DNA of 64,000 bases from the human T2T-CHM13v2.0 reference genome, Homo sapiens, in the NCBI RefSeq assembly GCF_009914755.1, contig NC_060927.1, one strand, 5' to 3'. Both the position numbers and the translations under genes were made by a program. The notes beneath the pieces were generated by a model that did not search any database, had not been told where the DNA came from, and saw only the letters and a program-made list of their open reading frames with translations. Within the stretch, counting starts at the first letter, position 1, and each line of letters opens with the position of its first letter. Of the stretch, positions 7,143 through 49,009 are shown in pieces.

Positions 7143-7173
<31 letters not shown>
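7143..7173. repeat. (TA)n microsatellite
   Basis: About 15 AT units. Confidence 0.95.
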
Positions 7174-12839: not shown

Positions 12840-13168
<329 letters not shown>

Positions 13169-13748
13169 CATGTGAAACATTTTTCAAAACAAAATAACAA
13201 AACTTAGCGAAGAGGGAAGAGATGGTGGTGATTAGATGAGCATTAACTTGATTCTTTTTGACAATCTTTTCTTGAGCATTAGTAGCGCTAAGTGAGCACA
13301 ATACATGTAATCACTGTTTCTGAAGCCTTAATCATCCCTTTGAAACCCATCCATTTTTTCCACTTGCAGACCATGCCATGAGTTGAGAGGGAACTGCCTG
13401 TGTCTTTGACAATATAACTGAATGTACGAGCAATCTGATTTCACCTGTTCATCAACTCTAAATTAGAAGAATGTCAACTCATGCAGTGGCTACAGTATTA
13501 GACAAGGACTTTGCATCTAGTCACTGGAGTAGGAGGAATAGAGATTTTTGAATTCTGGGCAGAACCTTTTCTTCAGCATTTTTGAGCCTGCTGAAGTCAT
13601 TTTTGGCCTTTCCAAATATATCTTACCCTTACATGGCGAGAAGTAACCTTGATCTCCTCTAAGTCACTATAGTCTTTTATCTATGCGCCATGGTTGGCAC
13701 ATAGTGGACATCTAACAAATGTTTGAATGATGGAATAGGAAGAAAAGA

Positions 13749-13848
13749 TTTTCTTTCCTTTTCAGGGGCTACCTAGGACAAACACCACTAGAAGGTATGG
13801 ATCTTCTAGTGGTGTTTGTCCTAGGTAGCCCCTGAAAAGGAAAGAAAA
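13749..13848. repeat. Perfect 46-bp inverted repeat with 8-nt spacer
   Basis: 13749-13794 (ttttctttccttttcaggggctacctaggacaaacaccactagaag) is the exact reverse complement of 13803-13848. Spacer is gtatggat. Confidence 0.98.
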
Positions 13849-14210
13849 CCTGACATCAGAAGACAACCATGCTCTAGGGCAACTCCGGTGCTTTGTAAAG
13901 AAGGAGAACATCAGAAACAATGTATAATATTCTCAAAGACCCTTAGCTGCAGAATTCATATGGTGTCACTTGAAGATTTTTCTCTCTTAAGATTTCAGGA
14001 GAACACAGGCAGTTCCAGGAGACACAGGCAGTTCCGTCTCAATTCACGGCAAGGTCTGCAGGAGAACACATAGACTCTGTTGTACTTGAGGGAAGATTTT
14101 TCTAGCCTAGCCTGAAGGGAGGCCACATGTTATCCCAGACCCACCTTGCCACCTTAGTAGACACTATAAACTCATACAACTCCTAGAGTGTAACACTGGA
14201 AATGATTTGT

Positions 14211-14767
14211 TGTATTAGTTTTCTATTGCTACATAACAACACCTATTTATTAACTCACAGTTCCATAGGTCAGTAGTCTACACAGGGATCTTCTTAGAAT
14301 CTCACAAGGGTAGGAATCAAGGTGTCAGCTGGGCTGAGTTCTTATCTGGAGACACTGGGGAAAAAAATCTGTTTCCAAGCTCATTCTTGTTGGCAGAATT
14401 GGGTTTCTTGTGGTTATAGGACTAAGATCCCTGTTTCCGTGATAGCTTTTAGCCAGGGGCCACTCCCAGTTCCTCCAGGCTGCCTGCATTCTTTGACATG
14501 TGGCCTTCTCAATCTTTAACCCAGCAATGGTACATCAAATCCTTCTCATGCTTCAGATCTCTTCCTCTTCCGTCTCCAGCTGGAGAAAACTCTCTGCTTT
14601 TAAAGGGCTGTGTAATTAGATGAGGCCCACCTGGATAATCTCCCTATTTTATAGTCAAATCTGTCTTGTAATAACTTATTCATGAGAATAAAATCCATTA
14701 TATTCAACAATCCTGGGATTGTGGGGGTGGGGGAATCTGGGACCATTTTGAAACTCTGCCTATCACA
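14211..14767 (-). mobile_element. MLT1 (MaLR) solo LTR
   Basis: TG...CA termini (tgtattagtt...ctgcctatcaca); 5-bp TSD tttgt at 14206-14210 and 14768-14772. Confidence 0.85.
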
Positions 14768-48951: not shown

Positions 48952-49009
48952 GGCCAAGTGCTTTCGGGGCAAAAAAGTCCTTGGAGATTATGATATCAAG
49001 GTGGAACAG
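48952..49009 (+). CDS. SYN2: Synapsin II coding exon (exon 2), 58 bp: (W)AKCFRGKKVLGDYDIKVEQ
   Basis: Acceptor ttattcttttctccag ends at 48951; donor CAG|gtaatc at 49010. Translation matches the start of the synapsin C-domain. Phase 2 to phase 0 fits the next exon. Confidence 0.97.

What the first reader, a model, noticed from the sequence alone, without database searches (positions are those of the whole stretch)
13749..13848. Perfect 46-bp palindrome in unique intronic DNA (hairpin/cruciform; possible template-switch-born miRNA-like hairpin)
Seen: 46/46 matched arms with an 8-nt spacer. As RNA, G-U and U-A pairs extend the stem to 48 bp with a 4-nt loop (AUGG). The sequence is not recognisable as a MITE or Alu. 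Established: perfect long inverted repeats arise in one step by replication template switching, decay quickly, can extrude cruciforms, and as RNA can be ADAR or Drosha/Dicer substrates. Inference: zero mismatches imply a very recent origin or active homogenisation, and the hairpin is transcribed in neuronal SYN2 pre-mRNA.
Basis: partly seen in the sequence, partly recalled or inferred. Interest (0 to 1): 0.75.

Follow-up and report, generated by a model that had tools for sequence, protein, structure and literature searches.

The report
Perfect 100-bp palindrome in SYN2 intron
A flawless 46+46-base inverted repeat sits in single-copy DNA inside an intron of the human SYN2 gene; it is most likely an inverted copy made by a DNA-replication slip, a known kind of event, and nothing yet shows that it has a function.

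Summary
Arms 13749-13794 and 13803-13848 are 46/46 complementary with an 8-nt spacer. As + strand RNA the stem is 48 contiguous pairs with an AUGG loop (-90.6 kcal/mol, z = -15.8).

It is far beyond chance and background. The longest other perfect inverted repeat in complex sequence has 12-nt arms in this window and 13-nt arms in 200 kb sampled from 20 chromosomes.

It is single-copy in the whole T2T genome and has no target-site duplication, so it is not a MITE. No Rfam family reaches its gathering score. The best match, mir-3199 (71.9 bits, cut-off 100), reflects shape. That miRNA is itself a perfect palindrome listed in print as born by template switching.

Best reading (about 0.6): a one-step inverted copy made by replication template switching, carried passively in SYN2 pre-mRNA.

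"Very recent origin" is overstated. With 92 CpG-free arm bases, zero substitutions is likely over 6 My (P 0.52-0.76), and the 95% upper bound is 27-65 My.

No other primate or human assembly was available, so origin, age and polymorphism are untested. Small-RNA processing and editing are also untested.

Verdict: a new member of a known kind, of modest interest.

The parts
13749..13794 (.). Left arm of the perfect inverted repeat (46 nt, 43% G+C, no CpG)
13795..13802 (.). Spacer GTATGGAT. In + strand RNA its outer G-U and U-A pair, leaving an AUGG loop. In - strand RNA all 8 nt stay unpaired.
13803..13848 (.). Right arm, the exact reverse complement of the left arm
13746..13748 (.). Outer extension of the left arm (AGA). 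A13746 and G13747 pair with T13851 and C13850; A13748 mismatches C13849. This is either the edge of the copied tract or chance.
   Evidence: 49-nt arms, 98%
13849..13851 (.). Outer extension of the right arm (CCT)
13733..13763 (.). Weak quasi-palindrome (81% over 32 columns) centred on the left edge of the left arm. The purine-rich left flank is roughly complementary to the pyrimidine-rich outer 15 nt of the arm. It could be a pre-existing seed, or a chance effect of low complexity.
   Evidence: E 0.087 within a 2-kb self-comparison
13854..13857 (+). CNNC motif (CATC) 6 nt past the stem base on the SYN2-sense strand. It is a weak miRNA-processing cue only, and no basal UG was found.

Best explanation
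The palindrome is an inverted copy made in one step. During replication the growing strand left its template and copied about 46-49 nt from the complementary strand, either by folding back on itself or by jumping to the other strand. It then returned, leaving a source arm and its exact reverse complement 8 nt apart in otherwise unique DNA. This is a short-range template-switch mutation (TSM). The event happened in the primate lineage at a time that cannot yet be fixed. Since then the element has been carried passively. It is transcribed as part of a SYN2 intron of more than 48 kb, where the sense RNA can fold into a 48-bp perfect hairpin. No dedicated function is shown. Shown here: the structure, its uniqueness and its statistical excess. 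Inferred: the mechanism of origin, transcription, and the absence of function.
For: 1. The arms are perfect and adjacent (46/46, 8-nt spacer). This is the product expected of a TSM as described in PMC10710096 (abstract and passages).
2. The element is single-copy in the 3.1-Gb T2T genome. A 201-bp query and a 901-bp query hit only this locus. The 32-nt arm core with up to 3 mismatches occurs once per strand, with 0 in the reversed-pattern control. This excludes a transposon family.
3. The arm contains all four bases, is 43% G+C and is not low-complexity.
4. The class is well populated. PMC10710096 section 9 reports 53,666 putative TSMs in human genic regions since the primate ancestor. Of these, 31,007 formed a new RNA stem and 6,054 were of miRNA size.
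5. The size is within the range seen. PMC9435742 section 4 gives per-individual maxima of 97-180 bp in unmasked DNA. The mir-3199 locus is listed with a TSM length of 96.
6. The closest Rfam look-alike, mir-3199, is a perfect palindrome of nearly the same geometry. It is listed as TSM-derived in that paper's dataset sd01.
Against: 1. No outgroup or second human haplotype was examined, so the defining test (a single arm in the ancestral state) has not been done.
2. The mean TSM length is only 11.56 bp, so a 46-nt copy lies in the far tail.
3. Polymorphic TSMs are reported as depleted in introns (P = 0.012).
4. No clear microhomology is visible at the outer junction beyond 2 bp.
5. Perfect arms are equally compatible with an older imperfect repeat that was later homogenised.
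Confidence: 0.6

Rival explanations
1. This is an older imperfect inverted repeat kept perfect, or made perfect, by repeated template switching between its arms (quasi-palindrome correction or homogenisation). On this reading its perfection says nothing about its age.
For: The abstracts of PMC8604942 (listing) and PMC13100816 (listing) state that template switching between non-identical inverted-repeat arms homogenises the arms and inverts the spacer. PMC10710096 recalls the same original model. A supplement of PMC9435742 shows a human chr3 palindrome whose spacer is polymorphic by inversion. Locally there is a weak quasi-palindrome at the left arm edge (13733-13763) and an older inverted repeat at 13350-13405 / 14020-14074. 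The region therefore has a history of such events.
Against: There is no direct evidence for it. The mechanism is the same as in the best explanation and differs only in the starting state. The local quasi-palindrome is of marginal significance (E 0.087).
Confidence: 0.17
2. This is a working small-RNA locus. The hairpin would be cut from SYN2 intronic RNA, or from an antisense transcript, by Drosha/Dicer or by Dicer alone. It would yield ~22-nt RNAs, as at the palindromic mir-3199 locus.
For: The best Rfam hit on both strands is mir-3199 (71.9 and 71.5 bits, E about 5e-13). The geometry is nearly the same as the mir-3199 locus, which has a perfect stem of about 40 bp and a small loop. A CNNC motif lies 6 nt past the stem base. 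Intronic position supplies transcription, which PMC10710096 names as the limiting factor.
Against: The score is below the gathering cut-off of 100, and no family passes in the whole window. Plant miRNA models also hit at 46-50 bits, so most of the score reflects shape. Arm-to-arm similarity to mir-3199 is 17 of 21 columns, and 99 of 5000 shuffles reach it before any correction for choosing the best of many families. The hub's RefSeq table lists no miRNA gene here. A 48-bp stem with a 4-nt loop departs from the ~35-bp stem and >=10-nt loop preference. Only 57 of 6,054 (0.9%) suitable TSM hairpins are annotated miRNAs. No paper holds a 16-nt core of the arm (DNA letters only, supplements not searched).
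Confidence: 0.1
3. This is a palindromic miniature transposon (MITE, such as a MADE1-like or hAT-derived element) or a relic of one.
For: Short palindromic elements of 80-100 bp exist in the human genome (recalled, not from a call). The inner part of the arm starts with CAGGGG, which resembles hAT-type ends (recalled).
Against: There are no other copies in the whole genome. There is no direct target-site duplication: the bases flanking either the 46-nt or the 49-nt arms, or the CAGGGG...CCCCTG core, do not repeat directly. An old element would not have perfect arms, and a young one would have near-identical siblings.
Confidence: 0.03
4. This is an assembly artefact or an allele private to the CHM13 genome.
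For: Only one assembly was examined. Palindromes are hard to clone and sequence (PMC7999016 passages).
Against: Nothing in the sequence suggests a join, and both flanks are ordinary unique DNA. Known long-read palindrome artefacts affect whole reads and not 100-bp stretches (recalled).
Confidence: 0.05

Closest known systems
Template-switch-mutation (TSM) hairpins of the primate lineage (Loytynoja 2022, PMC9435742; Monttinen et al. 2023, PMC10710096)
   Same: It is a perfect reverse-complement copy next to its source, in complex non-repeat DNA, inside a gene's intron, and it creates a stable RNA stem in one step.
   Different: Origin by TSM is not shown here because no ancestral allele was available. 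The copy is about four times the mean TSM length (46 against 11.56 bp). It carries no later mutation, whereas 105 of 111 published miRNA loci had gained some.
hsa-mir-3199-1/-2 (Rfam RF03906), a perfect palindrome on chr22 annotated as miRNA genes on both strands
   Same: It is a perfect stem of 40-48 bp with a tiny loop that folds alike on both strands. It is the best Rfam hit on both strands. The mir-3199 locus is listed as TSM-derived with a TSM length of 96.
   Different: The chromosome differs. The score of 71.9 is below the 100-bit cut-off. Arm similarity is not beyond what shuffles give once multiple testing is allowed for. No annotation or read evidence exists for the SYN2 hairpin.
Short inverted repeats / cruciform-prone non-B DNA motifs (invertiaDB, PMC12019632; SIR surveys PMC5737083, PMC12562434)
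   Same: It meets the invertiaDB definition: arms >=10 bp, spacer <=8 bp, no mismatch. Such motifs are linked to local instability.
   Different: It is far longer than usual. The mean arm is 7.12 nt, and both surveys stop at 25 nt. Long arms are elsewhere mostly AT-rich and low-complexity, whereas this one is 43% G+C and complex.
PATRRs (palindromic AT-rich repeats)
   Same: It is a near-perfect palindrome in non-coding human DNA.
   Different: PATRRs are several hundred bp long and more than 90% AT. This one is 100 bp and 57% AT.

Membership tests
mir-3199 (Rfam RF03906) | Covariance-model score at or above the gathering cut-off (100 bits) | tested here: not met
   71.9 bits (+) and 71.5 bits (-). 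The true locus on chr22 scores 109.4.
mir-3199 (Rfam RF03906) | Sequence homology of the arms beyond shared shape | tested here: inconclusive
   The best local block has 17 of 21 columns identical (score 12). 99 of 5000 dinucleotide shuffles reach that score, uncorrected for picking the best family.
Template-switch-born hairpin | Exact reverse-complement copy adjacent to its source, with all four bases, outside repeats | tested here: met
Template-switch-born hairpin | The ancestral allele (outgroup or other haplotype) lacks one arm and is converted to the derived allele by one reverse-complement copy (four-point alignment) | not testable with these tools
   No primate genome or second human genome is held. 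Scans of genome contigs and viral contigs for a 25-mer of the arm gave 0 hits.
Canonical animal miRNA gene | Stem of about 35 bp with an apical loop of 10 nt or more | tested here: not met
   48 pairs with a 4-nt loop (+ strand) and 49 pairs with an 8-nt loop (- strand). The criterion is quoted from PMC10710096.
Canonical animal miRNA gene | Discrete ~22-nt products with Drosha/Dicer ends | not testable with these tools
   No small-RNA data are on hand.
MITE / DNA transposon | Multiple related copies in the genome | tested here: not met
   Only this locus was found. Sensitivity was about 70% identity for long matches and at least 90% for the 32-mer.
MITE / DNA transposon | Direct target-site duplication flanking the terminal inverted repeats | tested here: not met
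   The flanks read show no TA, 8-bp or other direct repeat at any candidate boundary.
PATRR | Several hundred bp and more than 90% A+T | tested here: not met
   100 bp, with arms 43% G+C. The definition is from PMC7999016.

The most novel reading that the evidence does not exclude
This is a small-RNA gene caught at birth. On this reading the hairpin is human- or ape-specific and perhaps still polymorphic, with no mutation since its origin. It would already be expressed in neurons through its SYN2 host intron and would give Dicer-dependent small RNAs or act as a strong ADAR or dsRNA-binding-protein substrate. That would make it a natural test of how fast a raw template-switch hairpin becomes a regulator.
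Probability: 0.08. Interest if true: 0.6.

Novelty: new member of a known kind. Interest (0 to 1): 0.3.

Why it matters
Perfect inverted repeats this long in complex, single-copy human DNA are rare. They show a mutational process that builds a whole RNA hairpin in one step. If outgroups show a single arm, this locus would be an unusually long and completely unmutated example inside a neuronal gene. It could then be used to ask whether newborn hairpins are processed, edited or merely tolerated, and whether they are unstable in the population. As it stands it is a clean example of a described class, with no evidence of function.

Tried and rejected
1. MITE or repeat origin is rejected: no other copy in the genome and no target-site duplication.

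2. Membership of mir-3199 is rejected: below the cut-off and no convincing arm homology. The Rfam-family search of the own genome scored only 55 of about 1,035,952 candidates and did not list this locus itself. It therefore cannot be used to count look-alikes.

3. I looked for an independent copy of the locus, such as human or primate DNA carried in other collections, using a 25-mer of the arm. It gave 0 hits in genome contigs and 0 in viral contigs.

4. Print searches:
- 'SYN2' + 'inverted repeat' + 'intron' gave 9 papers, and none was relevant by title or abstract. The one I opened (PMC9704047) matched only Synapse accession numbers.
- A 16-nt arm core gave 0 papers. This used DNA letters only and the main text only.
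- 'mir-3199' + 'palindrom' gave 0 papers.

5. Supplements of PMC9435742 were searched for the 25-mer and for 'SYN2'. Both gave 0 in the 11 of 22 files that were searched. Files 1 and 13-22 were not searched, and the code archive is unreadable. Supplements of PMC10710096 hold no 'SYN2' or 'chr3'. File sd02 was too large to read, and the full list of 6,054 genic TSM hairpins was not among the files read.

6. Deciding from the single sequence which arm is ancestral gave no usable signal. The left flank weakly pairs with the outer part of the left arm, but this is purine/pyrimidine-rich and marginal.

Full report
**Observation**

- The repeat finder reports one inverted pair, 13746-13794 and 13803-13851. 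It is 49 nt long, 98% complementary and has 8 nt between the arms.
- The inner 46 nt are exact. The left-arm string occurs once on each strand with 0 mismatches, and 0 of 100 shuffles gave two matches. A script confirmed identity of the reverse complement.
- The single mismatch of the 49-nt version is A13748 against C13849.
- As + strand RNA, which is sense to SYN2, the hairpin has 48 contiguous pairs (27 AU, 20 GC, 1 GU) and an AUGG loop. As - strand RNA it has 49 contiguous pairs and an 8-nt loop.
- Folding energies are far from shuffles. For RNA the value is -90.6 against -32.6 +/- 3.7 kcal/mol (z = -15.8). For DNA it is -56.4 against -13.3 +/- 2.8 (z = -15.7). In both cases 0 of 200 shuffles fold as well.

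**How unusual it is**

- The 64-kb window holds 10 perfect inverted repeats with arms >=12 nt and spacer <=20. Eight of them are registers of a (TA)n run at 7143-7173, and the only other one has 12-nt arms.
- In 200,000 bases taken at one fixed coordinate from each of 20 chromosomes, 20 repeats have arms >=10. The longest has 14-nt arms, or 13 in complex sequence.
- Published surveys of human short inverted repeats stop at 25-nt arms and report a mean arm of 7.12 nt (PMC12562434 passages; PMC5737083 passages). They note that long arms are mostly AT-rich and low-complexity.
- This arm is 43% G+C, contains all four bases and has no CpG.

**Uniqueness**

- Against the whole 3.1-Gb assembly in which the window lies, a 201-bp query and a 901-bp query around the palindrome matched only this locus. 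Each matched itself and its own reverse strand.
- The 32-nt arm core with up to 3 mismatches occurs once per strand, with 0 hits for the reversed-pattern control.
- The same search engine did find hundreds of copies of an interspersed repeat at about 70% identity, starting near window 14235 (700 candidates, 40 scored). It can therefore see old families of a few hundred bases.
- No direct repeat flanks any plausible boundary of the element.
- A transposon origin is therefore rejected. An old element would not have perfect arms, and a young one would have close siblings.

**RNA families**

- In 13000-14600, 21 matches had E <= 10, and none reached a gathering score. The whole window has 0 matches at gathering.
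- The best match is mir-3199 on both strands, at 71.9 and 71.5 bits against a cut-off of 100.
- Plant miRNA models follow at 46-50 bits, which shows that a long perfect hairpin scores on shape alone.
- The true mir-3199 locus on chr22 scores 109.4 bits. It is itself a near-perfect palindrome, with 82 of 87 positions self-complementary, and has the same geometry as the SYN2 element.
- Arm-to-arm alignment gives one block with 17 of 21 columns identical. 99 of 5000 dinucleotide shuffles score as well. After choosing the best of thousands of families, this is not evidence of common descent.
- The SYN2 hairpin works like mir-3199 in shape but is not a member of that family.

**What the literature adds**

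- Monttinen et al. 2023 (PMC10710096; abstract, passages, sections 6 and 9, and a supplement search) show that replication template switching creates perfect hairpins in one event.
- They count 53,666 putative events in human genic regions since the primate ancestor. Of these, 31,007 made a new RNA stem and 6,054 were of miRNA size. Only 57 of the 6,054 (0.9%) are annotated miRNAs.
- Their dataset sd01 lists hsa-mir-3199-1/-2 as such a locus, with a TSM length of 96.
- Of their loci, 105 of 111 gained further mutations after the event.
- Loytynoja 2022 (PMC9435742; outline and section 4) gives a mean length of 11.56 bp and per-individual maxima of 97-180 bp in unmasked DNA.
- A 46-49-nt copy is therefore long but within the observed range.
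- Neither paper's searched files mention this locus. 11 of 22 supplement files of the latter paper were searched. File sd02 of the former could not be read, and the full list of 6,054 genic TSM hairpins was not among the files read.

**Age**

- I assumed neutral rates of 0.5-1.2e-9 substitutions per site per year (my own figures, not from a call) over 92 arm bases.
- The mean wait to the first arm substitution is then 9-22 My.
- The chance of none in 6 My is 0.52-0.76, and the 95% upper bound is 27-65 My.
- The lack of CpG makes the arms less mutable still.
- Zero mismatches therefore does not imply a very recent event. It is compatible with any time since roughly the early anthropoids.
- Recurrent arm homogenisation by template switching is described in the abstracts of PMC8604942 and PMC13100816 (listings only). 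It would loosen the age bound further.

**Mechanism**

- The best-supported account is a one-step inverted copy by template switching. Confidence is about 0.6, with a further 0.17 or so on the variant in which an older imperfect repeat was homogenised.
- The structure, its uniqueness and its statistical excess are shown here. The mechanism is inferred from the match to a described class.
- The defining test, a single arm in the ancestral allele, could not be run, because no primate genome and no second human genome is held.
- Transcription is inferred from the hub's annotation. The element lies on the sense strand between a SYN2 exon upstream of the window and the exon at 48952.
- Processing into small RNAs is possible but unlikely (about 0.1). 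The stem is longer and the loop shorter than the preferred miRNA precursor, no gene is annotated, and the base rate is 0.9%. A CNNC motif does lie 6 nt past the stem base.
- Editing by ADAR and cruciform extrusion are reasonable expectations from general knowledge for a 48-bp perfect duplex, but they were not tested.

**Surroundings**

- The locus carries an older, diverged inverted repeat at 13350-13405 / 14020-14074. It is 82% identical over 56 columns, and 90% over the inner 41 nt. Its centre lies 86 bp to the left of the palindrome's centre, so it was a separate event.
- There is a 14-nt tandem duplication at 14003-14016 / 14022-14035.
- An Alu-like SRP-related match lies at 13058-13167.
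- An old interspersed repeat starts near 14235.

**Verdict**

This is a new member of a known kind, of modest interest unless outgroup, population or small-RNA data show it to be very young or processed.

Noticed in passing
window 13350-13405 and 14020-14074: A second, older inverted repeat brackets the palindrome. It is 82% identical over 56 columns (90% over the inner 41 nt), and its arms lie about 615 bp apart. It is single-copy in the genome. Its centre (13712.5) differs from the palindrome's (13798.5), so it looks like a separate and much earlier inverted duplication.
   Followed up: partly
window 14003-14016 and 14022-14035: An exact 14-nt tandem duplication (ACACAGGCAGTTCC, 19-nt period) lies inside the right arm region of the older inverted repeat. 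One copy also pairs with 13390-13403.
   Followed up: no
window about 14235-14600: An old interspersed repeat has hundreds of copies at 68-78% identity across the genome (700 candidates, 40 scored). NCBI's mask list for the window does not include it, and the family was not named here.
   Followed up: no
window 13058-13167 (-): A sub-threshold Metazoa_SRP match (40.1 bits, cut-off 70) lies inside the masked stretch 12844-13206. This is consistent with an Alu about 580 bp upstream of the palindrome.
   Followed up: no
L003 (G000:C22:28381942-28382028): The annotated mir-3199 locus is itself a near-perfect 87-nt palindrome (82 of 87 self-complementary). It scores alike on both strands (109.4 and 109.3 bits).
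   Followed up: partly
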